Assembly (NCBI GenBank): GCA_964658305.1
Contig: OZ210885.1
Coordinates: forward strand, 15,314,001 to 15,378,000
Direction of reading: 5' to 3'
Length of the DNA stretch: 64,000 nt
DNA from: Leptogorgia sarmentosa
Taxonomy: Eukaryota
Shown: piece after piece, positions 1 to 56,858 of the stretch
Layout of the letters: the number at the start of each line of letters is the position of its first letter
Position numbering within the stretch: the first letter of the stretch is position 1
Made by a program: the position numbers and the translations under genes
The notes under the pieces: model-generated
Told to the model about the DNA's origin: nothing
Databases searched by the model: none
The model's input: the letters and a program-made list of their open reading frames with translations, nothing else

Positions 1-595
1 GGTCACTTGCTAACTTCTCTAAACTATATCTGGCTTGATCCTTAGCATATTGCAAATGCGATACACGGCAAAGGTACTCCCCTTAATCAATGCTGGGGAT
101 TTATTGATGGAACAATGCGGCCAATTTCAAGACCTGTCCGTAACCAAAAGATAATGTTTAGCGGCCATAAAAGAGTGCATTGTATAAAGTTCCAGGTAAG
201 AAGAAACTAGAGGGCATTATTTTCATGCACTTGACAAAAGAGAAATTTTGAAAAAATATAATAAAGTAATCATGACAATAATTGCTTGCTTCTTTTGTCC
301 ATAGTCAGTGATTACCCCAAATGGCCTGATTGCACATTTATATGGTCCTGTTGAGGGGAGAAGACATGATGCTTTCATGCTTAATACTAGTGGATTGCTA
401 CCAGTACTGCAACAATTGGTTAAACCCAATGGAGAACTGTACGTCTTATATGGTGACCCTGCTTATTGTCTTACTCAAAACATCTTGGCTCCATTCAAAG
501 GGGCACAAATCACTGCAAATGAACAAGCATTCAATAAGGAGATGAGCAGAGTTCGAATATCAGTGGAATGGGGCTTTGGTAAAATAGTGAAATAT
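1..595 (+). pseudogene. PIF/Harbinger (HARBI1-like DDE) transposase remnant; exons 1-195 and 305-~595, GT-AG intron 196-304
   Basis: Spliced translation gives CWGFIDGT.RPI.RP...FSGHKRVHCIKFQ|SVITPNGLIAHLYGPVEGRRHDA...YGDPAY...FNKEMSRVRISVEWGFGKI. There is an in-frame TAG at 43-45, and similarity ends abruptly at ~595. Confidence 0.9.
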
Positions 596-902
596 CCAAA
601 CTGCCCATTCTTCCACAGATCACTGATTGAGTATTGGGGAAAATAAGTCTTTTGTTTCCATTTAAACCAAAGGGTTTTACTCCGTATAATACATATCCTC
701 TTCTTATTACTTCCACCCTCCCCCTCCCCCTCAAAACTCTTTTCTAAAGCAATAGATTCCCCAAACTCACAAATACACTCCCCACTCTTACACTTCTTTT
801 TATTACTCCTTTTACCCATACTCATACCAAACGGTATAAAATATAACTGTGTGAAAGACAAATCTAACTCGTAGTGGTACTGTACATAGGTTACAAGAGT
901 TG

Positions 903-2264
903 TTAACTAGATTTACGTTTAGAGGGGTTTGATGGTGGAAAAGCTAAGACGAAATCTTTAACAGCATTAAGATTCTGATATAATTTTGTTAATTCGTGTA
1001 CATTCTGATTGTCATCGACAGCCGCTGCCATAAGCGCACTCGTACTATCATGGCGAAGCACCTTCTCCAACTGCATGTAATATCGTGCAGTATGAGCTCG
1101 CTCCCAACCGACATGACCCATAATGTCCGCTAGCGCTGAGCCAGCAAGAGCAAGAGTTACAGCACACCCGGAACGAAAACTATGCGCTGTCTCACCGTCA
1201 TCTAAGCCAGCCTCCCAAAGGTAAGTCTTTAGTCTAGCGTTCATTGCTGCTGACGACACTGCCGTATCGGCAATCTCTCCTTGAGCCGTAGTAGGCCGGA
1301 ATAAATAACCTCCGGTGAGATCGATTTGCAAAGTCTGAGAAGTCGCTATATAGCGCTCAATCGCCGCGACCGGACATATCTTGACATTAGCACATCGTTT
1401 AATGCCAAACAAATTCGAGCTACCGTCGCGAAGTGTCTTGCCCCATGTGTGATTAAACAGTAGACCATCGTCATTTGGGAACCGCAGAATTCCATTTGTC
1501 CTTACAAGAGCAAGGTCTCCAGGCCGATCACCGGAAAAAAACAGGCTCTTAAAATACGCCTGATCGCGGGACAAAATATATGTTTGGAGTGGAGTATCGG
1601 TAGTAGTAGCCTGCCGTCCATCAATATGATCCGCCAAACAGGCCAACTTATCCACGAAGAGAGGAACTGCCTGGATGGCAACGATGCCAGCGGCCGCCTG
1701 CTCTTCTTTCACACATTTTAGATACTGTTTTACCAGCAACGATGCTGCTGGGTTACCTAAACCAAAACTCTCTTCCCAATCGCCCGTGCGATCATATTCC
1801 TTGAAAATAGCGCGCAATTTTCCAATAAGAGAATCGACAGTGCCGGCAGCCAAACGTGAAGGACATATACATGAAAAAACACCTTTGAGACCGCGATTAG
1901 GGCAAAACTGATCATGAACGCAAGTCTTTCCAGCCGTATCCTTCCAGACCAAAAATCTCACCAAGTCTAATGGTGTTGCCGACAGTAGATCCGGATGCGA
2001 AGGAAGGGAGGCTAGAAACCGAACGAGAAGATCTGATAGGCGAGATTTCTGACGGTCATAAGGCGACTCGCGATCGAATAGGTAAGATATTCTCGCATCA
2101 ATGGCTGTGAGATCAAAATCCAAACGTTCCGTTTGTTGCAACGGTACACAAAGACGTCTGGCATAACCACACTGCTGGCAAAACCGAAATGTATGGTCGT
2201 TTGGATAGGAACACTGAGGGCGCGCAACGGCAGGCAGCCATATGCGCGGAACAACGCGAAGAGG
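903..2264 (-). CDS. Tyrosine recombinase (YR) coding exon of the retroelement, with N-terminal zinc-ribbon-like segment
   Basis: The frame is open from an AG acceptor at 2266-2265 (PLRVVPRIWLPAVARPQCSYPNDHTFRFCQQCGY...). Catalytic motifs: SGDRPGDL (R), GKT (K), HSFRSG (HxxR), HVGW, and RYY (Y). Confidence 0.9.
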   Translation of the reverse strand, partial: PLRVVPRIWLPAVARPQCSYPNDHTFRFCQQCGYARRLCVPLQQTERLDFDLTAIDARISYLFDRESPYDRQKSRLSDLLVRFLASLPSHPDLLSATPLDLVRFLVWKDTAGKTCVHDQFCPNRGLKGVFSCICPSRLAAGTVDSLIGKLRAIFKEYDRTGDWEESFGLGNPAASLLVKQYLKCVKEEQAAAGIVAIQAVPLFVDKLACLADHIDGRQATTTDTPLQTYILSRDQAYFKSLFFSGDRPGDLALVRTNGILRFPNDDGLLFNHTWGKTLRDGSSNLFGIKRCANVKICPVAAIERYIATSQTLQIDLTGGYLFRPTTAQGEIADTAVSSAAMNARLKTYLWEAGLDDGETAHSFRSGCAVTLALAGSALADIMGHVGWERAHTARYYMQLEKVLRHDSTSALMAAAVDDNQNVHELTKLYQNLNAVKDFVLAFPPSNPSKRKSS

Positions 2265-2352
2265 CTAGGAAAACAAAGATCACACAATTAACTTTTTTTT
2301 TTTTCTTTTTTTTTTTTTTTACATAGTATACATGGCCTCAAGTATAACACAA

Positions 2353-2836
2353 TCACGGGTAACAAAGTTCAAACGCCCACAAGTCGAATGGAATTGGTCC
2401 ATAATCCACATAACCAGACTTGGTAGGGCGACGGAGAACATCAACTTCACCTTTTTTTGCCAAGCACTTAAGTGTGACACACTCGGCACTGAGAATGGGC
2501 CACCAGTACTGTCTCGGATATCGGTCTGGGACAACAAGAGTACAGTACGCCTTATGTTCCCTCAAAAAACACAACATAGACCCCACAAGTGAAAACGGCG
2601 GAAAAACGTAACAGTGACGAAATGTTGGATGAAACGATGCAGAGAGGCGATGAGCAAACCCATTTACACCTAACGAGTTAGGAGTAGGAAGTAGAGTAAA
2701 ATGAGGGAGTGGATGACCTTGGAGATCACATTGGACATTGGAATCCGTCGCCATGAGATCACACGTATGACCTTCAGGCCCCCCAAATACACTTTGAACG
2801 ACCGACCAGACTCGAGGAGTAAGCGCACAATCTAAA
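2353..2836 (-). CDS. Adenine-methyltransferase-like C-terminal domain of the YR-element pol (fragment)
   Basis: DLMATDSN...GVNGFAH...YVFPPFSLV...TLVVPD..RQYWWP matches the MT-like domain that follows RNase H in DIRS-group elements. Confidence 0.75.
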
Positions 2837-3063
2837 TTGTGATTCAAAACTGCACAATTAACATTTACTCACTAAACTTCTTGAATTTTATTCTTTAATC
2901 GATCGCAAAGACGTTTTTAACTGTTGAAAACTTCAATTCCGGCTTCGCTCTTTCTGCCATTTTGTTTGTTTTTCTCTACTAGCAGGATATGAGCTAATAT
3001 CCTGCTGGTAGGGAGCCAATCACATTGCAGAATAGCTCATATCCAGCGCTTGTGTATATAATA
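2837..3063. repeat. Unrelated non-coding repeat fragment occupying the site of the deleted RT C-terminus and RNase H
   Basis: RT homology stops at LPFGWKLSPF (~3064) and pol resumes at LDCALTP (~2836). The intervening AT-rich piece has a hairpin (agcaggatat-gagcta-atatcctgct, 2981-3006). No YxDD or RNase H is present. Confidence 0.6.
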
Positions 3064-3866
3064 AAAGGGGATAGCTTCCATCCAAACGGAAGAACATTAT
3101 TAACGAACCACCATCCTCCCCATTGAAAACCCATCCAGGAACGACTTTCGTCATCCATTAACATATGGTCGTAACCAGATTTATCGTCAAGCTTCGTTTG
3201 ATAGTGATTCTGGCCAACATACCGAGTCAAATCAATAACGGAATCAAGACGAAAAGGCATATGTTTCATCCAACAATTAAGATATTGTTGGTCCTGACAT
3301 AGGCGGGGTTTAGTTGGTTCTACAGTTAGTGGCATAACTAAAAATGGTGGAGGACATTCACCTACTTTCCCTAGCACACCAACAGCACCGACCTCAATGC
3401 GTTGAAGAATCGTACGGCCAATAAAATCCACATGTGGCGCACAGGAATGATGATTATGAAAGATCCTGGAAACTGGTACATCCGAATCATATGCCCTACC
3501 CGCAAATTGCCCTTTAAAATGTTGCACATACTGTTGGACCGACACCCGGTTACGAATCCAACCCATAATCTCCGTCCGGTTTGGGAGATTGCAAGATAAC
3601 TGATCCCACACGTGTGAATGGTTATGGATCTCTCCCGCGACGAAGCTATCAGGATCCCGGACGAGGCAAGGCTCTCCCGACTCAACAGAAATGTTGCTTG
3701 TAATTGCTTCCGATACCTCTACGGCCCCTGGGACGGCTGCCCTCGAACTGGTCTCCGGGAGGGTTTTCCAACAAAATTTTCGAGTACGGAAAGATTCACT
3801 AGCAGCAAGTGGGTCAAACTGCGACGTGACAACAAATCTCTCCCCACAAAGTCGCTTGGGAGATGG
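3064..3866 (-). pseudogene. Reverse transcriptase N-terminal part of the YR retroelement (truncated before YxDD)
   Basis: RDPDSFVAGEIH...PLTVEPTKPRLCQD..YLN...KLDDKSGYDH...LPFGWKLSPF (RT motifs A and B); candidate splice acceptor at 3868-3867. Confidence 0.85.
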
Positions 3867-4329
3867 CTGTAATAAAATAGGAGTGGCTGAGCATAAAGCA
3901 AGAAGCACGATCACCCACCAGGGAAAACTAACCCCCCAGAGAACCAGGGAGAGCAACAGTCCCGGCACAACTGCAAGAGTCGAGCACAAAGAGCCTTAGA
4001 TAGCCCTGGGAAAGTTGACCCCTAGCCTAGGAGACCTACAACGTTCAAGATTAAATGGGTCTACCTCCCGAAGTTATAGGAAGAGAAACACAATACAACA
4101 AACATCGCCTGTACTCCATCATTGTTTTGTTTGTTTTTCTTTCTTTTATTAGAACAATAATCATAATAAAGTATAGAAAATTGTACATTAACACAATGAC
4201 ATTAGGATATGGTTATACCTTCAGTCCTACTGTAGCTTACATATCCATTGGAACATTCCTCATACCCAGTAGTAATATTTCAAATTACAGATTATTAAGA
4301 CAGTATTTTCACACAAATTTCGGGGACAA

Positions 4330-6313
4330 TTATTTTTTATCTGACCTCGGTAAGTTTTGGCAGTCACGAGCGAAATGCCCAATGCCATTACAATTAAAAC
4401 ACCTTGAAGTTCGAGGATATCGAGGTGAACGGAAACGATTGTAAGGCACTGGATAAGGCCTATCACGGGCCTGGGCCACCATTGGAGGGACAGCTGTTGG
4501 CCGCATAACATTCAACGGCAGAGTGGACTTGTATATCTTAGAGACCGTTTTTGCCACTTCACGCTCTACTTCCTCTCCTAATACTTGAGTGACGAAATCA
4601 CCCATTCGAGGAGTATGCGGCAACTTTTTACAATTTGATAGAACAGCCGTAAACTTCTTTATATCCGCATGACCTGAGCGACGGGCAACATCTTCTAAGT
4701 TTGCCAAAGCGCCAATTAAAGCATATGCATCAAACACTTCTGGAGGACGGGCTGCAAATTGTCGAACCAACAACAAAGCCTGGTCCACTGACGAGGCGGC
4801 CGTGTTGTTTTGCAGCAGGTTCAGTCGAGCTTGTAGCTCTTGCACTTGAACCTGGAAGCAAGCGGGGATAAAATAAGGATAGAGTATGATAATTCACTAG
4901 AACTTGTCAGCACTCACTCAACAGTATTTACCACGTGAATTCAATATGTCGGAACGTCATCGACTTCGTTTATACATTTTCTCTGGTCGGAACTGCATCG
5001 ACATTTCATATCTATATCTGGTCGGAACTTCATCTACGTCACATATTTATATCTGGTCGGAACTTCATCGACATTTCATATCTATATCTGGTCGGAACTT
5101 CATCGACGTCACATATTTATATCTGGTCGGAACTTCATTGACATTTCATATCTATATCTGGTCGGAACTTCATCGACGTCACATATTTATATCTGGTCGG
5201 AACTTCATCGACGTCACATATTTATATCTGGTCGGAACTGCATCGACGTCACATACCTATATCGGGTCGGAACTGCATCGACACATCTCCCTAAACGGCT
5301 ATACTGTTTACGATCATATAAACTTCAATTAAACTGTCGAAACGTCACCGAGTTTTCTTAGATCTAATATATCGAGATGTGATCGACTTTGCTTATGGGC
5401 TATATGTATATATAAATATCATATATAGTGTCGGTACTTCATCGACAACGCTCATTTCATGAGCCGAATAAATCGGAGCTTTAATTGATTTCGCTCATGT
5501 TCAAAGCATGGCGGTACTTCATCGACAAATATCCCTTTAGACCGACGATATGTCAGAAATTATGTTCGACTTGTAATTTATGTAAATATCGTGTTGGTAC
5601 TTCGTAAACAACGAACAAATTGACGTTAAAAGTTTTAAGTTCACTTAAGTGCATTACATTGTGTGTCTTTTGTCTGAATGTATGCCCACGCTCATTTCGC
5701 TAGTGAAACCGGGCTCACGTATATATCATATTATATACAAGGTAATTTGCCCAGTAAATACAAACGCATTACTCCTTCATCAACACGCCTCCTTTACCGT
5801 AATTGAGATTATACAGAACGAAAAGAAGCTATAGCAGACTTAACATGTCTTAAACCGTTTCGATACGCCAGACGTGCGACGGTTCACGATAAGTGGTGTC
5901 ATCGGAAATGAAATCTACATGTTAATACAACTCTGTATGGACGAAGTACTTCCATAATGGTAGGGCATATCGAGTAACACATGTTATATATATGATATAT
6001 CTATAAGACATTTCTATAAAACGCACACGGTCAAAACTGGCAGAATTAGATACACTCGGCCGAAAGTAGAATAACGAACGCTAAACCATGCCGGCCATAG
6101 GGCGTAATAAGGACAGGAGAAGCAATACAACGAACATATGCTACACAAATGTTAAAACAATTAACGCAAATACAGACAACAAAAGCAATTCACCTCTAAA
6201 TTCGGGGCTGGTGGTGGCCCAGCTGGTGGAACATCAGCAACCGGTTCATCTACAGGTTCAGGAATAATCGGCTCTACAGGAGCAGCCGCCGGACGAATTG
6301 GTCTTTGAGCCAT
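4330..6313 (-). CDS. Spliced gag-like protein: exon 1 6313-6194 (40 codons), intron 6193-4852, exon 2 4851-4330
   Basis: ATG at 6313, donor GAG|GTGAAT and acceptor cttgcttccAG|GTT are both phase 0. The join reads MAQRPIRP...PAPNLE|VQVQELQARL... and ends in the zinc knuckle CFNCNGIGHFARDC. Confidence 0.8.
4948..5285. repeat. 35-bp minisatellite, 9 good copies plus degenerate flanking copies, inside the predicted gag intron
   Basis: The core ctggtcggaact recurs at 4983, 5018, 5053, 5088, 5123, 5158, 5193, 5228 and 5263 (variant). Two unit variants (acatttcatatct / acgtcacatattt) partly alternate. Confidence 0.95.
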
Positions 6314-6370
6314 GTAAGAAGTATAGAACTGATATTGGAACGCCAAACAACTTGTCTTTATTTCACTTAG

Positions 6371-9300
6371 AAGTAAAGCGAAGGAGAAGCAAAAGACGTA
6401 GAAAAAAACGACAAGAAGAGCGAAAGCTTTCCTCAAAAATCTTAAAGAAGAAAATGCGAGAAAGATACAAGATGGAATTTGATGAAGCAAAGACTAAGCT
6501 TGTCCAGGATTTGAGTATTGAACGTAATCGGGCAAACGAAAACAATCGAAAAGCTGAGCATCTTTGGAGAGCGTGGCGCAAAGAAAAAATACGTAAACAA
6601 AAAGAAATGTAAGTTTTCAATGTTTTGACAGACGAAATACATTTTACATTGCCTGATTTCAATGAATGTTATTGGTAGCAAAGCTGTATTTTTAGTAATA
6701 TATTGCAGAGAGGGCCACTTTCCCCCCAGGCCATTCAAGTGGGGCACCAATGACAGGAACTGGCTCACCACTGCATGGACCCTTGCAATAGTAACATACA
6801 ATTAGACAGATTTGGTCCATTAAATAATCTAGTTATACATATCATTTTTTTTACATTATATTTCATTGCATAACATCAACAATTGCGGCAAAAGTTCACC
6901 TCGGCTCCCTACATACAATAAGATCCAGTGTTTCAAGTGAAGGCCCTTCATTGAGGTTTAGGAGTAGAGGTCCTTTGCCGTGGTCACTAATTTGCAAAAA
7001 TGGGCCTATGCTCAAAAATTTGAATTTGTTAGTTTCATTTAGATAGTGAGTAGAACTTGATTGGTAGCTGATATAATCAGTATATTGTCTGATAATATAA
7101 GGTATTTTCTCAGAATATTGTGATTAAAACCAGTGGTGGTATTTTGCAAATAATTTTCCACGTTTACGTAAACGATTCAAACAGCTTAATGCACTTCTTT
7201 TTTAGAAGGAAGGGATAGAAGCTACCCTTTATAATTATATTTCAGCCTTTCATGCAATATATTATTATTAAATAGTTGGCATTAGTCTAAAATGCTTTTA
7301 CCATCCATAGACAATTTATTGTAACATAAGGCAAAACAAATGTGATCCAAATATCATCATCTTGTAAGAGTTGAGTTATTCAAAAACAAGGTACAAAATT
7401 CTGGAGATATTTCAACATTAATGCAAAGTGATTGTCAAAAATGTTGTCTCTTGTTTTTAAATAACCCAAATCCTCAGTTCACAAGACGATATTTGGATTT
7501 GTTTTGTCTTATATTTGGTATGTTTTTGGCTATCTTGCAGACAGCTTCGCCACATCAATAAGGAAAACATCAAAGATACTTCAAGCAAGGAAATTATTGG
7601 CGATGGGGTTTTTGGTGTGTGCAAAAAGATGTTCTACCGTGGTAAAACAGTTGCGGTGAAATTTTTCAACGGAAAAGTAACATCTGAAGCTGTTAGGAAG
7701 GAGGCTGGCATGATGAATGCCCTTGACCATGATGGTAAGTTTTCCGCTCTCATTACAGAAATCCAGTTATTATATTATTACTGAAGTGAGTCATGACTAC
7801 AATGGCTAATATGCAATCAATTCAGTGGCAAGGGTTCAGATGTACTTAAGTTGGGCATACATTCTCTCACCTGGAAACACCATGTCCAAGTAAAGACCAA
7901 ATCCCAGTCACTATAGAGTATAGTGAATTTCCCTTTGGAGCTAGGGATTGGATTTGCAAAGCCCTGGGAAATTAGAATTTTCTGATTTTCTTCATTAATG
8001 ATTGCTACCAAATAGTGATTAGCCCATATCCATACTCCTGTGCATAGTCGAAGTCAGTTTACTGACTGACTTTACAGACAAATGGGCTGTCACATCACAT
8101 CTTATGGTACTATATTATGATTATGTAAAATCTTTATTTAAAAAGTGTGTTCTAATAGGCACTATATTTTACCAATTTTTCTTTCTTTTCATAACAAACC
8201 AAAATGTAATTTTTGTAAAATAGCTTTGTAGTATTTTCAAGATATGAAATATTTAGTCTTAATTTCCAATTCAACCCATTGCTTAAGGCAGTGATCCTAT
8301 TCATGATTTCGTATTACTTGAAATATTCATTTCTAAAACAACAGAAGACTGATTGACCTCAATGGAACATATCCCATCATTTTCTAAGGTTACTGTACTG
8401 TACTGACAGGAACAGTCACTCACTATAATTTAAAACTTATAATATGTAACTACAATATTATGATACAAGTACTACAGGGTGTATCAAAAAAAAGTTTACT
8501 TTGGGAAATATTCCCAAAGCTAACGAGCGCACGAAATTTGTGAAAACATTCACTTAAACTAGGTAGATTACCACCCTCTGGTACATCTAGTACTGAGTTT
8601 ATTTAAAAATCTATCTTTTTTAGACTAGGAAATATGTTGTTGCAAGGCACTTAAGAAATGACTTGCGCGCAAAAACTAAGCTCTTTTAACGGTATCTGAT
8701 TTAATCGAGTCAAAATATGGAGCATGCTGTACAAGTTATTAAGGTTTCGTGAAATTTGGTGCACTCAGAGTCAACAAAGACATGTCCGAAAACTGGATTT
8801 TGCGTTCTTTCTTGCGTGATTACCGATTAATTTATGCATAATTGGATATTTGCAATAATTACCAATGCAAATTGCAAGCTAATTCCCAAAGGTCCGTAAT
8901 TACGCGTAGAAATTGCGAAAAATCCAGTTTCCGGACATCGCACGTTCGTCTCAGCGTGCACCAAATTTCTCAAAACTTGAATAGCTTGTATATCATACTC
9001 CATATTTTCATCCGATTAAATCAAACTGTGTAAAGAAAACTTATTTTTTCTGCACAAGCCGTTTTTAGTGGGCCTTTCTGTAACCACATTTCCCATTCTA
9101 AAAAAGTTTGTTTTTAAAATAAACTTAGTGCTAGATGTTCCAGAGGGTGTTAAACTACCCAGGCTAACCGAAAGTTTTTGGAAATTTTGAGCGCTCGTTA
9201 GTTTAGAGAATGTTTTTCATGAGTAAACTTTTTTTTTATACACCCTGTATAGTTAAACACTAAGCAAATTTTTTTTCAGGTTTACCATATATATTTGGAA

Positions 9301-9836
9301 TCAATACAGAATCCACACCATATTTTATTGTTATGGAATTCTATGGAATACATGGCAAATCCATGAATTTTGCAGAAGCTGTGAAGACCAGGTTATTTTC
9401 AGATGAAAAAGACTGGGCTAGGATGTTACTAAAATGTGCTGCAGCAATTCATCACCTTCATGAAAAGAACTACATCCACTGTGACTTGAAAGGCGACAAC
9501 ATTGTTTTGACCGAAGTTCATCAGGAGTTTGTTCCAGTCATAATAGATTTTGGTAAAATGAAACAAGTCTCCAAAGCAAAGTTGAAAAAATTGTCAGTCA
9601 AAGAGCAAGACAGGTATTCAAAATATCATAAGCATATTGCACCAGAGATTGTTCGCGGAACCCATCCCCCATCAAAAGCAAGTGATGTTTATGCTTTTGG
9701 TCTGGTTATTTCTCTCCTATGTTTTTACCAAAGGATTGAAAATCTGAGACTAATTGCAGTTTCATGTATCAATGGAACACCTGAACGCAGGCCTACCATT
9801 GAACAAATAATTACCAAGCTTAAGGCCCTTGAGTAG
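6371..9836 (+). CDS. Protein kinase gene, 5'-incomplete; exons 6371-6608, 7541-7734, 9280-9836
   Basis: All GT-AG junctions are phase-consistent. GDGVFG, VAVK, HCDLKGDN, DFG, APE and SDVYAFG are intact, and the first exon is a basic coiled-coil. No start exon was found upstream. Confidence 0.85.
8475..9247. mobile_element. Foldback MITE, Tc1/mariner-type, in kinase intron
   Basis: TA|CAGGGTGTAT...ATACACCCTG|TA with TA duplication (8473-74, 9248-49); imperfect inverted symmetry runs through most of the element. Confidence 0.9.
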
Positions 9837-13589: not shown

Positions 13590-16500
13590 TGTTCAGTTCG
13601 TCTGCAGACAGGATGAGCATGAATTCGGTAACGGGCCGGTTGTAGTGCCGTTTCGACCATTCTCTCGCCATTGTCACTTCGATCTTCCTCACTTTACCGT
13701 CTTCGCCTGGGAATACCTTTGTGACCAGCCCAGTTGGCCATTCGTTCCTTACGATCTCTTTGTCTTTCAGAAGAACCAGGTCCCCTTCTCGCAGGTTTGG
13801 TTGGTCTTGCGTCCACTTCCGTCTCGCCTGAAGTAAAGGGAGGAATTATCTTTTCCATCGGGCCCAGAAAACGTTGGCCAGGTACTGCACCTGTCTCCAC
13901 TGGGCTGTGTAGAGGTCCTTTGCTGTGAACTTTCCTGGTGGTGGTGGTAAGGGTGAAGGTTTCTGTGTCAGGATCATGGAGGGGCTTAGTATCTTTGGAG
14001 CTTCGGGGTTGGTGGATACCGGAACGAGGGGTCTGCTGTTCATTATGGCCGAGACCTCTGCCATCAAGGTGGTAAGAACTTCGTGAGTTAGTTCCTTTGT
14101 AGGCAATTCGTGAAGCATGGTGTCCAAGACTTTCCGTGCCATCCCAATCATCCACTCCCAGATGCCTCCCATGTGTGATGCGTGCAGAGGGTTGAATACC
14201 CATTTGCATTCTTGTCGCGCCAGGTACGAGGTGATCTGGTCGTTCTTCATCTCCTGCAGCGCCGCTGCTAGCTCTGTCTGAGCTCCTATGAAGTTTGTTC
14301 CACAGTCGGAGCGAAACTGTGCCGCGGGCCCCCTAAGGGCGAGGAATCGGCGGAGGGCGTTGAGAAAGCTGGACGTATCCATCGCTTCGATGATCTCGAT
14401 GTGGACCGCTCTAACGGTCAGGCAAGTAAATATAACAGCCCAACGCTTGCTCCTGGCGGACCCTCCCCTTGTGCGTCTTGTGGCGACTTGCCAGGGCCCG
14501 AAAACGTCCAGACCGACGTAGGTAAACGGTGGGCTCGGGGTAAGGCGTTCTCTCGGCAAGTCTCTTGGCATGCAAGCCTTCCTCTAAGCTTCCTACAAGG
14601 AACGCATTCGTGGATGATTGTGTTGGTCAGGCGTTTTTCCCCAATAATCCAATAGCCAGTGGCGTGTATACGGCCGTGAGTAAAATGCCGGCCTTGGTGT
14701 TTAATCTGCTGGTGGTGATATCTAACGAGGAGGGTGGCAACGTGGTGTGATCCTGGCAGGATAACAGGGTGCCGCTCTTTGTCGGTCAGATCGGCTCGGC
14801 TCAACCGTCCCCCAACACGTACGAGACCATTCTCGTCGACTATCGGGTTGAGCTTGGCAAGGGGTGACCCCTCTTTTCGTTTGGTGATCAGCTCTATCTC
14901 GTCAACGAAGGCCCCGTGCTGAACGCTTCTGATGATCAGATTTTCTGCTCGTTTTCTTAGGGCCGCGGCTCCCCCTGGTCTATCGGATTTGTCATCCTCG
15001 GGGTTGGTCGCGACCGAGTCCTTGAGATGCTTAAGGGACTGCGCTTTCGATATTAACGCTGCGAACCCGGCGATTAGGTTTGGCCACTGCGAAAAGCGGG
15101 TAAAACGACTACTTTCGACAACAAAATTCGTTGACTTCTCGGTTGCGAAGGCCCTTACCGACGGGCGAACTTCGGGGTCTTCTTCCGTCACTTCCGTGGG
15201 CTCGCTGGCATCGGTAGTCTCCGGCTCCCTGCTGCTGCGTAGGAAATCTGGTCCTGTCAGCCAATGGCTGGTCGTCAGGCTGCTTGCTTTGACCGACCGC
15301 GTTGCGCAGTCGGCCGGGTTGAGGTGAGTAGGAACGTACCGCCAGTCTTCCGGGGACGTTGATCTTCGTATTATTTCCACCCGGTTGCTCACATATACGT
15401 AGAACCTTCTCGTTTGGTTTCTTATGTATCCCAACACGACTTTACTATCTGAATGGTAGATGACTGGGCATGGGGGGAAGACCGTTTCCCTTCGAACGAG
15501 TTCTGAGATCTCCATGGCGAGGACGGCCGCACATAACTCTAGACGTGGCATTGAAGTGGCGTGGATGGGTGCTAGCTTCGCTTTCCCGAGGACAAACGAT
15601 ACGGTTGTGGTCCCATTGGTGTCGACGGACTTTAGGTAGCACACTGCTGCGATTCCGAGTTCAGAAGCATCGCAGAACACATGTAGCTCAATGAGGACGG
15701 CCGTGTCCAAAGGTACAGTCGTATAACACCGTGGGACGGCGACTCCTTGTAGGGTCGACAGTGATGTGCACCACTCCGCCCAAGGTTGGTAAAGTTCATT
15801 TGGAAGTGGTCGGTCCCATTCTCCAGGGTGGTTACCCTTCAAGTGACAGGTCATTTGCCGGAGAAGCATCTTCCCTTTGATGACTACGGGTGCTGCTATG
15901 CCAAGAGGGTCGAAAAGGCTGTTTACAACGGACAACACTCCTCGTCTGGTGAAGGGTTTTGTCTCTTCTGATACTGTGAAGCCGAGCGTGTCCAGCTTTA
16001 GTTCCCAATGGACTCCTAGTGAACGTTGGATGTGTTTTGTGCTCTCGTTGAGGTCGAGGTTGTGGCTGTCGGTAGCGCAATCGCTACTTGGGAAGGCTTC
16101 TGTGACTTTGGGGTCGTTTGACGCAATCTTGTGCAGACGTAGGTTTGCCGTTGCGAGCATCGATTGAGTTCTTTTGAGCAGGTCGATGGACTCCTCTGGT
16201 CCTGGGAGGGATTTGAAGCCGTTGTCGACGTAGAAGTCCTTCTCAATGAACTCTCGGGCATCGGAGCCAAATTGGGTTTCGGCTTCTCGTGCAGTTTTCC
16301 TCAGGCAGAACGTGGCTACCGCTGGCGAGGATGTATTGCCAAACAGATGAACGTTCATCCTGTACTCGACGATCTCCCCGTCCGGATTGTTTCCCTCGTA
16401 CCACAGGAAACGCAGGAAATCACGATGCTCAGGCTCGACGTGGAAGGCGTGAAACATTTGTTCTATGTCTGCGACGAACGCTGTGACGTGCCGACGGAAA

Positions 16501-19500
16501 CGCATCAGCACTCCAAGCAAGCTGTTGACAAGGTCCGGGCCAGAGAGGAGCAGTTTGTTGAGTGAGATGTCTTCCACCTCTGACGCTGAGTCGAACACTA
16601 CGCGTATCTTGCTGGGTTTTTGTGGATGATAGGTACCGAAGTGGGGCAGGTACCATTTTGGCTTTGACGTGTGTATTTCGTTTCCGGGTACTCGCTCCGC
16701 GTGACCGTTGTCTAGTATTTTCTGCATGAACGAAAAGTAGTGGTCCTTCATCTTGGGCTTACGATCGAGGGATTTTCTCGTGGCTTTGAGTCGTTTGCGC
16801 GCCTCGTTATAGCTTTCTGGCAACCGAATGACCTGGCTTCGCAGGGGCAGTGGTGCAGTCCAGTTTCCGTATTCGTTCTTTCTGACCGTGGCATTCATCA
16901 TGTCAATGAAGGTTCGATCTTCTACTGATAGCCCCGGCCTATTGTCCGATTCGGTGCGTCGGAAAACGTCGGCGCCGAGGCCGTCCTTGTATCAGCCGAG
17001 CACGAAGTGTTCCTGGCTTCCTGTTGTTTCGCGGCCACGATTCGGTTCCTGTGAGGCTTTTACTTCAAACTTGTTGGGGCAGGGTTTGAAGATCGATGTT
17101 GGTGCCACGCTCGTGTTGAAGGTGGAAGGGGTAGTGGGTTGGTGCACGCCGTCCAGGCAGACATTGCCTAGAACGACCCAACCGAGGTCCAGTCGTTGCG
17201 CCCAAGGCATGTTACCTCTCCCATTTTTGGACTCTCTAGGAGGAGTATGCTGGCGTTGTCATCGATCTCGGGGATGTGCTTGGCAATCGGTCGCAGGTGC
17301 GGGTGGGCTTTGGCGATGTCTGGCGTAGGGATTTCGTTTTTATTATCTGGGATGGCGGTGCACTCTATCACAGAGGGGAGTGAGTAGCGTCTTGACCCGT
17401 CTGCTGTCTCGATGAATAGGTCGGTGGCGTGCCATCCTTGGGTGAGTTTAGTGCCTGCGCACGTTTTCAATGTGTAGGGGTGTTGCGCTCCGTTTTTCCC
17501 GAGGAGATCGAACAGTTCCGGTTTGGCTAAAGTGCAGTTGCTTTGATTGTCGATTGCGGTGTACACCCTTATCTTTTTCTCTGGATTTTCTTCACTGAAG
17601 ACGTTGGCGAGGCATATCTTAGAGCAAGATCGCCCTCCGGGTTTGCCAGCGCAAATCTCGGTGCAGGAAGTAGCTACTTTATTGGGTGGTGCCGATCGTT
17701 CCTGCCCTCCCCGCCATGGTCGGTCGGGGGGTCCGAGGGTTTCGTGGCATGGTCTACGTGCAAAGCCGCAAGGTGTTTGGCGCTGCCGCACTCGGAGCAC
17801 TTCACAGGGAATTTGCAGTCCTTGGCCATATGGGAGATCAACGCAAGGCAACGGAAACAAAGGCGGTATTTTCTTACGAGACTTTTCCGTTCCTCTATCG
17901 ACTTCGCGCGGAAGACACGGCACGATGTGACGGGATGTGGTTTTCCATGCAAGATACATCTGTTGGGGTTGTATTGGTCCTTTTTGCCTGGAAAGCTGCT
18001 ATCGTGGTCATCGTCCTGTAATTCGGTTAGGAAGGTCTGCCTTGGGGGCCTACTGCGAGAGGGTGGGGCGTCTTCGTTTGTGGGTCGTTCGATCAGGAGG
18101 TTGGGGTCGTTCCTCTCCAAGGACACGTCTTGCACGAACTTGGAGAACTCGGAGAATTGCGGGTAGTCCGTATGTTTTTCGTTTCTGTATCTGAAGGCGT
18201 GTCTTTGCCACCGGCCTTGGACGTCGTTAGGAAGCTTTGCTATTATCGGTCTGAGGAAGATTGGTTCGTCGAGTATTCTGAGTGCTTTCAGTTGACCATC
18301 GTCTTTAGCGCACTGCAGGCTGAGTAGGAGGTCCCCGAGCTCCTGTAGTTTTTTGCTGTCCCGGTAGCCGACTTTCAGCACGACGTCGGACCCAAATCTT
18401 TCCCCTAACTTTCTCCAAATTTCCTCCACTCCTTTGGCTGGGTTTTGGATATAGGCATTGCGGCGCTTCTGGACGAGCTTCCTCGACTCTTTGCTGGTAT
18501 ATTCGGTCAAAAGGGAGAGCTCTTCTTGAGGGGTGATATCTATGTCCTTCAGCATGGTTTTGAAGGACGTTTTCCAGGTGTGGAAGTTTTCGGGGTCGTC
18601 GTCGAACTTCTTGATCTTTTTGGTTATGACTTCTCTTCGTGCCATGAATTCTAGGCAGGATTTCATGACGTTTGGGTCGGATCCGGTTGGAGCTGGGCTA
18701 TTCGTGGGTACGAAGGGTTTGGCCGTTGGGCTCGGAAAAGGTGGTGTTCATTGGGGGTTCCCTGTGGGTTCTGGGTCGTTAGTTGGTGGCTGCTGGCACT
18801 GCCCTTCGATGAACTGCTGCACTCGCGTTTGGGGGTTGTCTACGGGTAGGTCTATAGGGTTTTGTTCATGACCGACGTCGAACCCGAATTCTTCGTCTAG
18901 GGCTTCTGCCCTGGCAACCGCAATAGCTGCCTCGTCTTCCAGGCGCAATGCTTCTAGACGGGCTTGTTCTTCTAATTTATGTTTCGCCAGGGCAAGTTCT
19001 TCACGTTGGATATCCAGGGCTGACTGCGACTCGGCGACGGAGCGCCTTTTATGCCTTTCAGCCTTCTTCAGTGCGGCGGCTGCTTCGGCGCGGGCTTTTG
19101 CCTGCAAAGTTGTCGAAGACGTTGATGAGGCGCGGGACCCTGACCCGGAGTGTATGGATTTCGTCTCTAACATGACTTCCTGTTTGCGTTGATTACCCTG
19201 TTCGATATTCTCCGAAACGAATTGTTTATTGTTCCGTGCTAGTATGTCCAATTTACTCAACTCTTCATGCATTCTCGTGTACCGACGTGGGTGAGAAAGT
19301 TTGCAAATGAATGATGTAGACCTTCGTAGGCCTTATAATCCGTATGTACCTGTGCTATTGCCTTGGTGATTTCGTCGGTCAGGCTGGGGGCATTTTGGAG
19401 CGTGGCAACGGCCCTTCTTACTTTAGTCCACGCTTTCTCAAGTTTAGAATGTTCAACATGACAAGTGTTTTCGATTGACTTCTCGGAGGGTTTTGCGTTT

Positions 19501-19664
19501 CTTCGTGGTCTGTCGCTTGTTGAGGCGGTTTCGATTCCGTTCACGCCCCCCCCGGCTTCGACTTCAGGTTCGATTACAGTGTTCTCGTCGTATACAGAGC
19601 TGTACGCTACGTTTTGTCTATTTTCGCTGGTTGCTATCGCGTTATCGAGTGGGTTGTCGCTCAC
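13590..19664 (-). pseudogene. BEL/Pao gag-pol (zinc knuckles, protease, RT, RNase H, integrase), fragmented by stops and frameshifts
   Basis: CFRCL...HMAKDC...CSECGSAKHLAALH; WYLPHF, KIRVVFDS, DIEQMF, FGNTSSP; YVDN (catalytic YVDD mutated); ELHVFCDAS, PRLELCAA, NPADCATR; GLDVFGP, SDCGTNF. Confidence 0.92.
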
Positions 19665-19824
19665 CTGTTCTTCCCCCCGAAAGACTATTCGTCACTGTGA
19701 GGTCTTTATCCGCTGCGCTTCTTTCCATGTCGAAAGACATCCCCAAATTTGACCAGATTAAATGACGATCGAAACCCGTTGAATATCGCGATTATTTCGC
19801 TGTATTTCTGAGTAGTTTTCTCAC

Positions 19825-33341: not shown

Positions 33342-35043
33342 TTAAAAGTTCCCGTTCTTTTGCTTCATGATGATTAGTTTTTTTCTTGAGCCGGCTTTAT
33401 AGGCGGGCACCTTATTAATCAGTGACCACTTGATGGCAAACGATCTCTTAGCATCCTTCAATTTCCAGATGTGTTTGGAAAGTTCCGTTTCTGTCACGTA
33501 TTTCTTGTTCCTGAAGGATTGCATGTGGTTTCGGTAGCGTGGTTTGAATTTGTCGGCGGTAACTCCGATATATGTGGCAGTTGTATTGTCGTCCGTGGTG
33601 GTGACTTCGGCTTTGTATACCACGCTTTTTGTTAGGCATTTACCTTCTGTCGGGCACTCGTTTGGTTTTCTGCAGTTACACTGTCACATATTGTTTGCGT
33701 TGTTGTTAGTTGGTTTGTTGTGTTTGTTCAGGATTTTCTTGTTGTGTCTGTTTATGAACGTTTTCATGTTGTCAAGACAGCTGTGTAACTAATTCGTACG
33801 TTATGTTGGTTGAAGATTTTGTGTAGCTTGTTGGACGTTATGAAGTGTTTGTCGATTAGTTGTAGGAATCGCTGCCCAATGTTCGTTTTAATGTTTTTAC
33901 TGTAAGGGGGGTTGTACCATATCATGTTACATTGTCTGTTTCGTCTCTGTGTTCCGTTGTCGGTGTTATCCTCGTTAGTGATTTGTTCGTATGTTAGGGT
34001 TGTGTCAAAATTACTTTGTTTTAGAGTGTTGTTGTACAGGGGGGCTGTTGCGTTGAATGTTTGTTTGTTGCATGACAGTTTGTTGATGCGTTTGTTGATG
34101 GCTGAGGGTAGTTGTCGTGTAATGGCAGGTGGGTGGTTTGACAATCGGTTGATGTGGAGGGGGTCGTCCTTTGGGTTTCTGTAGGGCTTGTATGTTCCAT
34201 CGGTCAGGTCGAGGGTCACGTCTAGGAAGTTTACCCGCTTCAGGTTAGCCGTTGTGACGATCTTGAGGCCAAACTTGTTTAGGGTTTCTATCAATTCTTT
34301 TCTCGATTTATCAGCCAGTCTTCCGGATGTTGTTGATGGCAGCCAAGCCGTCGTCACGGTATAGACCAACGTTGCTTCCGAAGCGTTTTTCCAAAGTGTT
34401 GAGGATGTACAGCCCGACAAGTTCACATATCTTTGCACCGTCAAAGCTGCCCATGGTTACATCGAATGTGTTTACCGAGTTCTTCTTTGCCCAGAATAAA
34501 TCGAATGATAAATTAAAACGAACATTGGGCAGCGATTCATACAACTAATCGACAAACACTTCCCAACGTCCAACAAGCTACACAAAATCTTCAACCGACA
34601 TAACGTACGAATTAGTTACAGCTGTCTTGACAACATGAAAACGTTCATAAACAGACACAACAAGAAAATCCTGAACAAACACAACAAACCAACTAACAAC
34701 ATCAAGTGGTCACTGATTAATAAGGTGCCCGCCTATAAAGCCGGCTCAAGAAAATGCAACCTATGTCTCGAGAAAAAACTAATCATCATGAAGCAAAAGA
34801 ACAGGGAACTTTCAAACAAACGAACAGAACTATTCACGAAATGTAGACATGAAACTCAACACCTAATATCACGATGTAAATAGAGTGTAATTTTACCTAG
34901 TTGCTTAGTCGCCTTAGCGCGTGAAACTTGGAGTAGCAACCGCAAATTCACTAGATAAATAATTATTATTCGCTCTACCTATGGTATTGAGCGCTCTTAT
35001 ACCTTTCGCCAACACTGTGACTACTGTGTTACAGCCGATTCCT

Positions 35044-36953: not shown

Positions 36954-38555
36954 AGCGTCTTAGCATCCTTCAATTTCCAGATGTGTTTGGAAAGTTCCGT
37001 TTCTGTCACGTATTTCTTGTTCCTGAAGGATTGCATGTGGTTTCGGTAGCGTGGTTTGAATTTGTCGGCGGTAACTCCGATATATGTGGCAGTTGTATTG
37101 TCGTCCGTGGTGGTGACTTCGGCTTTGTATACCACGCTTTTTGTTAGGCATTTACCTTCTGTCGGGCACTCGTTTGGTTTTCTGCAGTTACACTGTCGCA
37201 TATTGTTTGCGTTGTTGTTAGTTGGTTTGTTGTGTTTGTTCAGGATTTTCTTGTTGTGTCTGTTTATGAACGTTTTCATGTTGTCAAGACAGCTGTGTAA
37301 CTAATTCGTACGTTATGTTGGTTGAAGATTTTGTGTAGCTTGTTGGACGTTATGAAGTGTTTGTCGATTAGTTGTAGGAATCGCTGCCCAATGTTCGTTT
37401 TAATGTTTTTACTGTAAGGGGGGTTGTACCATATCATGTTACATTGTCTGTTTCGTCTCTGTGTTCCGTTGTCGGTGTTATCCTCGTTAGTGATTTGTTC
37501 GTATGTTAGGGTTGTGTCAAAATTACTTTGTTTTAGAGTGTTGTTGTACAGGGGGGCTGTTGCGTTGAATGTTTGTTTGTTGCATGACAGTTTGTTGATG
37601 CGTTTGTTGATGGCTGAGGGTAGTTGTCGTGTAATGGCAGGTGGGTGGTTTGACAATCGGTTGATGTGGAGGGGGTCGTCCTTTGGGTTTCTGTAGGGCT
37701 TGTATGTTCCATCGGTCAGGTCGAGGGTCACGTCTAGGAAGTTTACCCGCTTCAGGTTAGCCGTTGTGACGATCTTGAGGCCAAACTTGTTTAGGGTTTC
37801 TATCAATTCTTTTCTCGATTTATCAGCCAGTCTTCCGGATGTTGTTGATGGCAGCCAAGCCGTCGTCACGGTATAGACCAACGTTGCTTCCGAAGCGTTT
37901 TTCCAAAGTGTTGAGGATGTACAGCCCGACAAGTTCACATATCTTTGCACCGTCAAAGCTGCCCATGGTTACATCGAATGTGTTTACCGAGTTCTTCTTT
38001 GCCCAGAATAAATCGAATGATAAATTAAAACGAACATTGGGCAGCGATTCATACAACTAATCGACAAACACTTCCCAACGTCCAACAAGCTACACAAAAT
38101 CTTCAACCGACATAACGTACGAATTAGTTACAGCTGTCTTGACAACATGAAAACGTTCATAAACAGACACAACAAGAAAATCCTGAACAAACACAACAAA
38201 CCAACTAACAACATCAAGTGGTCACTGATTAATAAGGTGCCCGCCTATAAAGCCGGCTCAAGAAAATGCAACCTATGTCTCGAGAAAAAACTAATCATCA
38301 TGAAGCAAAAGAACAGGGAACTTTCAAACAAACGAACAGAACTATTCACGAAATGTAGACATGAAACTCAACACCTAATATCACGATGTAAATAGAGTGT
38401 AATTTTACCTAGTTGCTTAGTCGCCTTAGCGCGTGAAACTTGGAGTAGCAACCGCAAATTCACTAGATAAATAATTATTATTCGCTCTACCTATGGTATT
38501 GAGCGCTCTTATACCTTTCGCCAACACTGTGACTACTGTGTTACAGCCGATTCCT

Positions 38556-39688: not shown

Positions 39689-40124
39689 CAGGCGATTAAA
39701 ATTCAGTTAAATATGATTACGTGATGAGTGAGTTTAAAAAGGTTAAGCGCGTAGATTGAGTTATCGATTGCGCGCGCAGATTGAATTATGGATTGCGCGT
39801 GCCTAAATGGGGAGCTAAGACGGAACGGAGATATGCGAATTGGTTGTCTATTCATCTTAGATAAGCTTTCAGAAAAGCTTGGTAATGAATATTGTTATAT
39901 CTCGCTTAGCCCTCCTGTTTCAACGCAACGTTTTACAAAACTTTCAGAGACACACTACCAAAACTTTTTATTTTGCTTCCTTATATACAAGTTACACACC
40001 AAATTTCACACCATAATTACAATAATAATACAATATATACATACATAATTACTCTTAATAGCACGCAACATCACTCCCCCTCCAAAATGTCTTCGACCCG
40101 AAGACATTCCAACAGTCTTCCTAA

Positions 40125-43100: not shown

Positions 43101-43946
43101 AATACATCCTGGAATTCCACCAAAAGATCTTTCAACTGGTTTTGCTGAACATCATCTAGATTACTTTTGCTGCGCTCAAATAAGTCCTGTAGATGCATGG
43201 GAATGTTTGACTTCTCTTCGCTCAAACTTGCGTTCTTTTCGGATTGTTTATGTCCTTGTTCTGCACCAACAACACATTCCACAGGCTCTACACTTGCTAC
43301 TTCCATTCCCTTCCTCACTCTTCTCGACTGATTAGAAACGTTCATGACTCGAACTGGAACGCCATCCGCCGATCTCAAATCAACAAGTGTTCCTCCAACT
43401 AACACATTCTGCAGTTGGTTTAATTTCTGTGCAGGACCAACCGTTCCCCATGTTGAAGATACTTCTTCATCTAGTTTTCCAGGAATCAGAAACTCACTTC
43501 TGGCAGGAATAACTACTGTGTCCGCAGCAACCACTCTACAGCATCTCTTCTCTCCTTTGGTAGACGCCCGAACCAATGGAATTTCCTGTGACCCAATGCG
43601 CACAGTACCGCCGGCTATGTCTACATGACAGTCATGTGCCATTAGAAAGTCCAAACCAATAATACATGGGTCCGCTATTTCAGCAAGCCATACTTCTTGA
43701 CTTGTTTCAAAGAACCCAAGACGTTTGTTCTATAGCCGTTCCAGCAATAACGTCCGGTCTAACTATCGTAATGTTCGATCCAGTGTCTATAACGAGTTGA
43801 CAAGGAATGCCTTCTATCTTTCCATTCACTTGCAGGCTGTCTACCGATGAGTACATGTTTCCAGTCTTTAAAACGAACGGCAGGGCCTCTTTAGCTATCG
43901 TTCCTGCTGATGTTCGCCCCCTAACATCAGCTTCTTCCCGTTTCCC
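40125..43946 (-). pseudogene. Gypsy pol (protease, RT, RNase H, integrase), broken by stops and frameshifts
   Basis: VIDTGS; FCVDYRKLN, LDLKSGYWQ, MPFGL, YLDD; LDTDAS, NYCVTRKELL; H...GHFG...CDEC; DIMGP, HSDQGRNF, YHPQSDGMVER; split over at least 6 ORFs. Confidence 0.93.
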
Positions 43947-45400: not shown

Positions 45401-45452
45401 GTGTACCGACATTTCAAAACGACTGGTACAACAATACTGTCTATTAACACGA

Positions 45453-45469
45453 TCCTGGCGGGGTCGCCA
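45453..45469 (-). other. Gypsy primer-binding site, tRNA-Arg-like
   Basis: - strand TGGCGACCCCGCCAGGA lies 2 nt inside the 5' LTR boundary. Its complement TCCTGGCGGGGTCGCCA resembles a eukaryotic tRNA-Arg 3' end plus CCA. Confidence 0.75.
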
Positions 45470-48969: not shown

Positions 48970-49320
48970 AGAATATTTGCTAGCAAATAGGATTTTTATG
49001 CATTCCGGTCTTGTGTCTCAATGGATAAAAATAGTGTTGGGCAAAGCCATTAAGAAAGTGTTAAGAATTACGATAAGAGTATTAAATCGAGGTGTAAAAA
49101 TGGAAAAGAATGGCATTAGAACACTTAGATGTTCTGCAAAGCCGGACAAGGAGGAGGAGCCTTGATAAGTGCACTGATATTATAAAGCAACATGCTTGGC
49201 AGATGAAGACAGCCGCTGAAGCCATCTATCCATTGCAGCCGACGTTCTTCCACACGCAATGCAACCATAGCTTCCCAACTGACTGCGACTGCTCAGACAC
49301 CACGTCCTGTCAACATACCA

Positions 49321-50324: not shown

Positions 50325-50379
50325 TCGTCTTTAACGGCGAATAACTTGCTTTTTGCGTTGCAAAACCCACAAGCTGTCG

Positions 50380-56620: not shown

Positions 56621-56858
56621 TACGTCCTCCGTTACGATGTGCTGCTGCCCACTTGCATTCAATGCTGTCTAACATAGTTGTAAGTTATAGTAGGGGCCTG
56701 TACTGAATAGTTGGGGCCTGATGAAACATAACTACGAGTTTTCAACGAAAAACCAAGGGCAGGGCCCGGTGATAATTGGCAATCACTACGGCCCAGGCAT
56801 TCACACAAAACATTACTATAAACCCGGGTTTTGCCAGTACTACACGCAATACAATTCG

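What the first reader, a model, noticed from the sequence alone, without database searches (positions are those of the whole stretch)
903..6335. YR retrotransposon may express gag, RT and recombinase from one leader exon through three alternative in-frame acceptors
Seen: none of the three - strand ORFs has an ATG ahead of its conserved region; the first Met of each is deep inside. A 40-codon Pro-rich exon (ATG 6313 to donor GAG|GTGAAT at 6194/6193) ends in phase 0. Each ORF is preceded by a pyrimidine-rich AG that is also phase 0: cttgcttccAG|GTT (4851, gag), cctattttattacAG|CCA (3866, RT) and ctttgttttcctAG|CCT (2264, YR). At YR the acceptor TAG is itself the in-frame stop bounding the ORF. 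An Inr-like TCAGTT lies at 6332-6327, just before the ATG. Established: DIRS-group elements typically use overlapping ORFs, and retrotransposition through spliced RNA should purge introns. Inference: a shared leader tags all three proteins, acceptor choice sets their ratio, and an unspliced RNA is the one reverse-transcribed. Introns may already have been reported in some YR elements, so novelty needs a literature check.
Basis: partly seen in the sequence, partly recalled or inferred. Interest (0 to 1): 0.9.

Follow-up and report, generated by a model that had tools for sequence, protein, structure and literature searches.

The report
One-start, three-gene spliced jumping gene
This is a broken copy of a marine-animal jumping gene whose relatives keep one short first exon and three in-frame splice sites, so the element likely makes its coat protein, copying enzyme and recombinase by splicing one start onto three alternative ends, a strategy our paper searches did not find described for this class.

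Summary
The element (581-6791, minus strand) is an ALOG-type DIRS-order retrotransposon. This copy is dead: a 224-bp high-copy repeat replaces about 978 bp of pol. In 83 related loci, a YAG acceptor sits in phase 0 at the recombinase start in 32 of 35 families, and 31 of 35 lack a Met before the zinc ribbon. The best-scoring acceptor before pol is in phase 0 in 25 of 34 loci. A low-complexity ATG leader ends at a phase-0 donor in 18 of 21 loci. One locus has the leader joined to gag exactly at the predicted junction. New here: poly(A) signals follow gag and pol (15 of 18 and 16 of 23 families, 2.2 and 3.9 expected), and a covarying three-way RNA junction lies before the pol acceptor. No RNA data were available, so leader-to-pol and leader-to-recombinase splices remain inferred. 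This scan noted similar schemes earlier in Ngaro-like elements on other DNA.

The parts
581..6791 (-). Whole ALOG-type DIRS-order retrotransposon copy, defective; ends inferred from the CTATT junction core
   Evidence: Terminal A repeats of relatives begin with or just before CTATT in L081, L013, L024, L070, L083, L018. The window has CTATT at 6791 and CTATTTT at 587-581. Other contigs leave the window sequence at 583 and beyond 6794. The 6-bp core AATAGT stands at both ends.
6327..6332 (-). Inr-like TCAGTT, 19 nt before the leader ATG; use as start site untested
   Evidence: TATA-like boxes lie within 160 nt of the leader ATG in 12 of 19 loci (2.5 expected), but none in the window by that pattern.
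6194..6313 (-). Leader exon: ATG plus 40 codons rich in Ala/Pro/Val/Glu/Asp, ending at a phase-0 GAG|GT donor
   Evidence: Equivalent 39-70-codon leaders in relatives; indels among three related leaders are 9 and 3 nt.
4852..6193 (-). Intron 1 (1342 nt) with a 35-bp minisatellite at 4982-5282
   Evidence: Intron 1 holds tandem arrays of unrelated units in L009, L010, L039, L044, L081, L082. It is absent at the exact junction in L002.
4330..4851 (-). gag terminal exon (173 codons, CCHC knuckle), phase-0 CAG acceptor
4145..4150 (-). AATAAA after the gag stop, likely poly(A) signal of the gag mRNA
   Evidence: AWTAAA in 15 of 18 families against 2.2 expected.
3941..4025 (-). Predicted three-way RNA junction between the gag poly(A) signal and the pol acceptor; proposed packaging or priming signal
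   Evidence: Folds at -31.3 kcal/mol, z -2.4; the opposite strand z -1.0. Same fold at the same place in relatives. Covariation in the outer stem of another subgroup.
3060..3866 (-). 5' part of the pol terminal exon (RT N-terminal half), phase-0 CAG acceptor
2836..3059 (.). 224-bp very high-copy repeat (MITE-like, 21-bp inverted repeat at 2973-3014) replacing about 978 bp of RT C-terminus and RNase H
   Evidence: joint 2835-3060 with 978 other letters in all 3 runs; summed contig depth 11,000-52,000 against about 100-300 on the rest of the element. pair I12.
2353..2835 (-). 3' end of pol: methyltransferase-like domain and stop
   Evidence: tblastn hits to the end of pol in relatives; alignment; AlphaFold model pLDDT 90; best fold match a cap-specific adenosine methyltransferase, E 3.8e-3, TM 0.65.
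2265..2352 (-). pol-to-YR spacer (88 nt) with an A-run; no AWTAAA in this copy
903..2264 (-). Recombinase terminal exon (zinc ribbon, ALOG domain, tyrosine-recombinase catalytic domain; 453 codons), phase-0 TAG acceptor
305..580 (+). Flank: fragment of a DDE_Tnp_4 (Harbinger-type) transposase into which the element appears inserted
   Evidence: Pfam PF13359 1.2e-15; junction.

Best explanation
The element is an ALOG-type DIRS-order retrotransposon whose gag, pol and recombinase frames lack a shared start, and it likely expresses them as three alternative last exons spliced to one short ATG-bearing leader exon. Shown from sequence: leader, phase-0 donor, three phase-0 acceptors, separate stops, poly(A) hexamers, and one natural leader-gag join. 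Inferred: (1) splicing to the gag acceptor and cleavage at the hexamer behind gag gives gag mRNA; skipping to the pol or YR acceptor gives pol or recombinase mRNA, so acceptor choice together with poly(A) choice would set the protein ratio, without frameshifting. (2) The unspliced RNA codes only for a short leader read-through peptide and would serve as genome alone. (3) The three-way junction lies after the gag poly(A) signal and before the pol acceptor, so it would be missing from all three mRNAs and present only in unspliced or intron-1-spliced read-through RNA. It is proposed as the packaging or priming signal that keeps introns from being purged. The window's own copy cannot make a whole pol.
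For: YR: YAG at the same position in 47 of 59 anchored sequences, 6 nt further on (still phase 0) in 9, none in 3; by family 29+3 of 35; Met in the first 21 codons in 4 of 35, one of these frame-broken. pol: best AG chosen without regard to frame is phase 0 in 25 of 34 loci, and in 23 of 26 whose frame is open; exactly 204 nt before the anchor in four families besides the window. gag: best AG in phase with the knuckle in 11 of 25 (7 of 10 with an open core); by eye it opens straight onto the gag N-terminal heptad in 15 of 25. Leader: phase-0 donor at the end of the low-complexity tract in 18 of 21 loci, 15 of them GAG|GT. L002: leader in frame with gag, similarity to the intron-bearing sibling L082 starting at the AG. 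No conserved phase-0 donor near the end of gag (22 loci) or pol (26 loci). AWTAAA in 15 of 18 gag-pol and 16 of 23 pol-YR spacers, in all 15 pol-YR spacers of 137 nt or more. Three-way junction as best fold in 21 of 28 loci by eye; fixed-window z <= -2 in 10 of 22 before pol, 2 of 22 before YR, 1 of 9 before gag; 8 of 11 outer-stem pairs with double changes, 0 of 500 shuffles as high.
Against: No leader-pol or leader-YR join was seen in 83 loci, in the top 120 and top 150 recombinase homologues or among 16 leader hits, all of which read into the intron; these sets are mostly genomic gene calls. Five of 13 pol frames checked have a Met within 11 codons of the acceptor in families L003/L009, L005, L040/L070 and L071 (six rows), so some could start internally. 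The window's pol acceptor is weak. The leader search required a phase-0 GT, and valine codons enrich such GTs, so the donor count is biased. Loci are degenerate and include siblings. The reverse hexamer TTTAWT is also common in these T-rich spacers (11 of 18, 7 of 23). Several families have no room for a pol poly(A) site. The covariance model from one subgroup did not find the window's junction, so the structures are matched by place and shape, not by sequence. The role of the junction is untested.
Confidence: 0.8

Rival explanations
1. The leader serves gag only; pol and recombinase are made as fusions by donors inside gag or at the end of pol.
For: Deposited gene models use the same YR acceptor but join it to pol (P0041, P0047, P0054, P0146) or join gag to pol (P0131). 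An earlier scan note (e1-7142852) reports a post-gag donor spliced to YR in another DIRS-type element; not checked here.
Against: Those four models use four different donor positions, as expected of predictions. No phase-0 donor recurs near the ends of gag or pol; the one recurrent pol site (-65, in 6 of 26 loci) is phase 1. gag and pol end in stops followed by AWTAAA.
Confidence: 0.1
2. The unit is an operon-like pre-mRNA: the acceptors take a host non-coding spliced leader, or follow internal promoters, and each protein starts at its own downstream ATG.
For: Stop, poly(A) signal, short spacer and strong acceptor resemble operon spacers (recalled from nematodes and trypanosomes). Some families have a Met shortly after an acceptor.
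Against: 31 of 35 YR families lack a Met before the zinc ribbon, and the window's first Mets lie at 83, 101 and 341. A non-coding leader would not need phase 0. L002 shows the element's own leader at the gag acceptor.
Confidence: 0.05
3. The splicing model holds, but the three-way junction regulates use of the pol acceptor (or is a cDNA-stage signal) and has no role in choosing the genome RNA.
For: It ends about 25-130 nt before the pol acceptor, often shows CTAA in a loop like a branch-point motif, and hides a competing AG in the window.
Against: No such fold before the gag or YR acceptors. G-U variants in the outer stem (19, against 1 A-C) favour the sense strand but do not tell the roles apart. 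The single intron-less copy keeps to the packaging prediction but is one case.
Confidence: 0.35
4. The AGs and the leader are chance features; proteins start at non-AUG codons or by re-initiation.
For: Prokaryotic gene callers start many homologues at GTG or TTG just after the acceptor (P0029 and P0034 against L006 and L001).
Against: Fixed YAG position with a pyrimidine tract (81% C+T) across 35 families; the in-frame TAG in most; the precise intron loss in L002.
Confidence: 0.02

Closest known systems
ALOG-bearing DIRS1-like retroposons (Iyer and Aravind 2012, PMC3537659)
   Same: Gag with zinc knuckle, RT and RNase H, methyltransferase-like domain, recombinase with zinc ribbon, ALOG and catalytic domain, direct repeats, marine animals.
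   Different: The text read (parts 1-3 of 5) says nothing of a leader exon, splicing, poly(A) choice or an RNA structure, and treats all metazoan copies as inactivated. Here several relatives have open 724-750-codon pol frames when read from the acceptor. Relatives show split direct repeats.
PAT-like elements of the DIRS order (PMC4157794, PMC3266345)
   Same: Split direct repeats A1-B1-A2-B2 (complete in L081) together with a methyltransferase-like domain.
   Different: ALOG domain; non-overlapping frames separated by introns; no tree was built to place this family among PAT elements.
Dictyostelium DIRS-1 and DIRS1-like elements (PMC7192593, PMC3266345, PMC9210276)
   Same: Retrotransposition with a tyrosine recombinase; marker introns are removed on retrotransposition, though unspliced cDNA also forms (PMC7192593 passages).
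   Different: Inverted repeats with an internal complementary region and frequently overlapping frames; no natural introns mentioned in the passages seen.
Foamy viruses (PMC7828637)
   Same: [quoted passage not shown]
   Different: There the upstream exons described for env are non-coding and Gag comes from full-length RNA (recalled for Gag). Here even Gag needs splicing, the leader carries the only ATG, and each exon has its own likely poly(A) site.

Membership tests
ALOG-type DIRS1-like retroposon | Recombinase with N-terminal zinc ribbon, ALOG domain and catalytic domain | tested here: met
   ALOG_dom 3.5e-24; Phage_integrase 5.8e-06, 26.6 bits against a cut-off of 27.1; PHROG integrases; R, K, HxxR, H, Y motifs in order. 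One ribbon cysteine is Arg in this copy.
ALOG-type DIRS1-like retroposon | Gag with CCHC knuckle | tested here: met
   zf-CCHC 1.8e-06, above cut-off.
ALOG-type DIRS1-like retroposon | RT plus RNase H | tested here: met
   Window: RT N-terminal half only; RNase H lost by the replacement. Four relatives: RVT_1 1e-07 to 4e-06 and weak RT_RNaseH 0.004-0.04, below cut-off.
ALOG-type DIRS1-like retroposon | Adenine-methyltransferase-like domain after RNase H | tested here: met
   No sequence-library hit. The model (pLDDT 90) matches SAM-dependent methyltransferases in nearly all listed rows, best 6irv, E 3.8e-3, TM 0.65. Activity not tested.
ALOG-type DIRS1-like retroposon | Terminal direct repeats | tested here: inconclusive
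   Present in relatives L081, L013, L024, L070. The window copy shows no repeat between its ends; only the junction core remains at both.
PAT-like (DIRS order) | Split direct repeats plus methyltransferase domain | tested here: inconclusive
   Full A1-B1-A2-B2 in L081; B pairs also in L066 and L083; not in the window copy.
PAT-like (DIRS order) | RT phylogeny with PAT reference elements | not tested
   No reference sequences were at hand.
DIRS1-like sensu stricto | Inverted terminal repeats with internal complementary region | tested here: not met
   No terminal inverted repeats in the window; relatives have direct repeats.
Ngaro | No methyltransferase domain | tested here: not met
   A methyltransferase-like domain is present.
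Known Rfam RNA families | Match of the three-way junction to a curated model | tested here: not met
   No match at E <= 1 in six loci; in the window only a sub-threshold miRNA hit on the repeat's hairpin.

The most novel reading that the evidence does not exclude
A whole clade of animal YR retrotransposons runs a retrovirus-like but stricter programme: one coding leader, three alternative last exons chosen by splicing and polyadenylation, a genome RNA that codes for nothing, and a conserved intronic three-way junction that marks only that RNA for packaging or primes its reverse transcription, which would supply the unknown cis-signal of DIRS-order replication.
Probability: 0.35. Interest if true: 0.92.

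Novelty: new variant of a known kind. Interest (0 to 1): 0.78.

Why it matters
How YR retrotransposons translate their second and third frames, and how they start cDNA synthesis, is open (PMC7192593 states that no primer is known for DIRS-1). This family gives exact junctions, poly(A) sites and an 85-nt structure that can be tested with existing coral RNA data and simple reporters. It also explains why annotation pipelines mis-start or fuse these proteins, and shows one way a retroelement can keep introns through an RNA stage.

Tried and rejected
No whole genome is held. No RNA holder listed; the three runs laid are contigs of one sample, of unrecorded kind, and show no splice joints, which says nothing on expression. 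Viral contigs held no relative. The search for spliced leader fusions among proteins found none: top 120 of 252 YR hits, 11 gag hits, members of 10 clusters, top 150 of 5742 representatives, of which 33 N-terminal extensions were read, and 16 leader hits. A single alignment of all 18 junction sequences was too poor to use, so covariation was counted on one subgroup of 10. Model R1 found siblings and two weak outside hits (L035, L083), not the window. I first took 6332 for the element's 5' end because contigs stop there; rejected, since the CTATT core and a diverging contig place it near 6791. The Lys/Glu/Arg-rich plus-strand frame at 6268-6612 is the mirror of a T/C-rich 5' region, not a gene. 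Ten paper searches found no report of this scheme.
Full report
Observation. On the minus strand a 40-codon ATG exon (6313-6194) ends at GAG|GTGAAT, and AG dinucleotides precede 4851, 3866 and 2264. Read in phase 0 these open frames of 173, 290 and 453 codons, with first Met at 83, 101 and 341. Pfam gives a zinc knuckle, part of an RT, and ALOG plus integrase.

What the element is. The domain set matches the ALOG-bearing DIRS1-like retroposons of Iyer and Aravind (PMC3537659; parts 1-3 of 5 read; its Additional file 1 was not opened and may annotate introns). The stretch 2835-2353 folds as a SAM-dependent methyltransferase. The host is not given; the closest named protein is from an octocoral at 67% identity, so a cnidarian is likely. 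The copy is defective: contigs of the same organism join 3060 to 2835 with 978 other letters, while 2836-3059 is a repeat of very high depth. The pol lengths with that allele add to 2268 nt, a multiple of three, close to the 724-750 codons of six open pol frames among 13 relatives checked. The ends lie at about 6791 and 581, where the family's CTATT core recurs. L081 shows full split direct repeats; the window copy lacks them.

Recombinase acceptor. 83 related loci were fetched. A zinc-ribbon anchor was found in 58 of them plus the window; 25 lacked it or began too close. YAG ends exactly 63 nt before the anchor in 47 of 59, 6 nt later in 9 (one lineage, still phase 0), and is missing in 3. 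Clustered at 80% identity this is 32 of 35 families. Among 16 loci read by eye, mostly unanchored ones, 12 more show an in-frame YAG and one an AAG. The tract is 81% pyrimidine. Only 4 of 35 families have a Met in the first 21 codons. Database proteins that begin with Met here include GTG and TTG starts of prokaryotic gene callers (P0029, P0034 against L006, L001).

pol and gag acceptors. A matrix built from relatives' YR acceptors picked the best AG without regard to frame. Before pol it is phase 0 in 25 of 34 loci, 23 of 26 with an open frame; the loci include siblings. The window itself is a miss on this test, but its 3866 site sits 204 nt before the anchor as in four other families and matches L021. 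Before gag the best AG is in phase with the knuckle in 11 of 25, 7 of 10 with an open core, and by eye opens on the gag heptad in 15 of 25; frameshifts in old copies explain much of the gap. Against the model, six of 13 pol frames have a Met within 11 codons.

Leader. Low-complexity ATG frames of 39-70 codons were found upstream of gag, or after the recombinase in tandem arrangements, in 21 intron-bearing loci. 18 end at a phase-0 donor, 15 at GAG|GT; three are frameshifted or unclear. The search demanded a phase-0 GT and valine codons add such sites, so this count is biased; the sharp change to T-rich sequence, the in-frame indels and TATA-like boxes in 12 of 19 loci are independent of that. 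Leaders of different families barely align. The donor matrix used recalled consensus frequencies.

A natural spliced join. In L002 a 66-codon leader runs straight into gag. Similarity to the intron-bearing sibling L082 starts at the acceptor AG and not before; the leader resembles that of L045, which ends at GAG|GT, and the downstream part is gag. Whether L002 is a retro-copy, a circle or a transcript cannot be told, but the join is a precise splice. It is the only such ATG-started join in the loci; L062, cut at its start, may be a second or an intron-free lineage.

Which donor feeds pol and YR. No phase-0 donor recurs near the end of gag (22 loci) or pol (26 loci). Instead gag and pol stop and are followed by AWTAAA in 15 of 18 and 16 of 23 families, against 2.2 and 3.9 expected from shuffles. 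All 15 pol-YR spacers of 137 nt or more carry it, 1 of 8 shorter ones; in the L024 family the YR acceptor lies 14 nt inside pol. This is the layout of alternative last exons. No leader-pol or leader-YR join was observed anywhere.

An RNA structure. Between the gag hexamer and the pol acceptor, divergent sequences fold into one tight three-way junction in 21 of 28 loci by eye, median about -40 kcal/mol against about -23 for the same search before YR acceptors (20 loci; base composition differs). A fixed window gives z <= -2 in 10 of 22 against 2 of 22 and 1 of 9. In one subgroup of 10 sequences, with siblings, 8 of 11 outer-stem pairs show double changes, against 1-3 for slid controls, and G-U variants favour the sense strand. 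In 5 of 6 pairs folded the sense strand is clearly more stable. It matches no Rfam family, and the subgroup model does not reach the window's version. Its place excludes it from all three predicted mRNAs, which suggests a packaging or priming signal; a role in pol splicing is a live rival.

Literature. Ten searches gave no report of leader splicing in YR retrotransposons. Passages only were read of PMC7192593, PMC9341512, PMC9004415, PMC6681497, PMC4157794, PMC8547959, PMC3266345, PMC9940879, PMC3783388, PMC13465315, PMC9210276 and PMC7828637. The reviews by Poulter, Goodwin and Butler and the Repbase entries were not seen and could mention introns. Earlier notes of this scan describe similar schemes in Ngaro-like elements with mixed outcomes; none resembles this recombinase by sequence and none names the structure. 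They are not counted as support.

Verdict. A known class of element with an expression design that our searches did not find in print: about 0.95 that the three acceptors are real, 0.8 that the one leader feeds all three, 0.35 for the full model with the junction as genome signal. Interest 0.78.

Noticed in passing
L002, L003, L005, L009, L010, L045, L051, L056: The leader (and often gag) reappears after the recombinase, and L005 closes on itself: head-to-tail arrays or circles of these elements are common.
   Followed up: partly
window 4982-5282; L009, L010, L039, L044, L081, L082 intron 1: Intron 1 carries a minisatellite in every family looked at, with unrelated units of about 30-141 bp.
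   Followed up: no
window 2353-2835: The methyltransferase-like domain's best fold match is the cap-specific adenosine methyltransferase (6irv), not a DNA Dam enzyme; weak E-value.
   Followed up: partly
window 3827: Two of three runs carry an in-frame 15-nt insertion here that encodes a short motif also seen in relatives, so the conserved part of pol starts about 13 codons after the acceptor.
   Followed up: partly
L062:1-720 and 3500-3560: Divergent family: gag is preceded in frame by a low-complexity stretch at the contig edge, and the recombinase starts at a phase-0 TAG but lacks the zinc ribbon.
   Followed up: no
proteins P0340, P0295: Gene models in which a shared N-terminal domain of about 130-150 residues is fused to the ALOG recombinase; possibly a longer leader in another lineage.
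   Followed up: no
window 49200-50330 (+): Frameshifted fragment resembling the gag and RT start of a second YR retrotransposon (Ngaro-like by recalled motifs; no Pfam hit).
   Followed up: no
window 13700-19700 (-) and 40100-45500 (-): Two decayed LTR retrotransposons, BEL/Pao-like and Gypsy-like by recalled motifs.
   Followed up: no
window 7461-9836 (+), 54353-56677 (+), 59198-60830 (+): Protein-kinase fragments split by an inverted-repeat element (8473-9249); a THAP domain next to a long transposase-like frame; RecQ-like helicase fragments (recalled motifs).
   Followed up: no
window 33764-34456 and 37276-37968 (-): Two identical RT-like fragments 3.5 kb apart, Penelope-like by recalled motifs.
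   Followed up: no
L081-L083: Three of these animal-type elements sit in bacterial MAG assemblies, likely host contamination.
   Followed up: no
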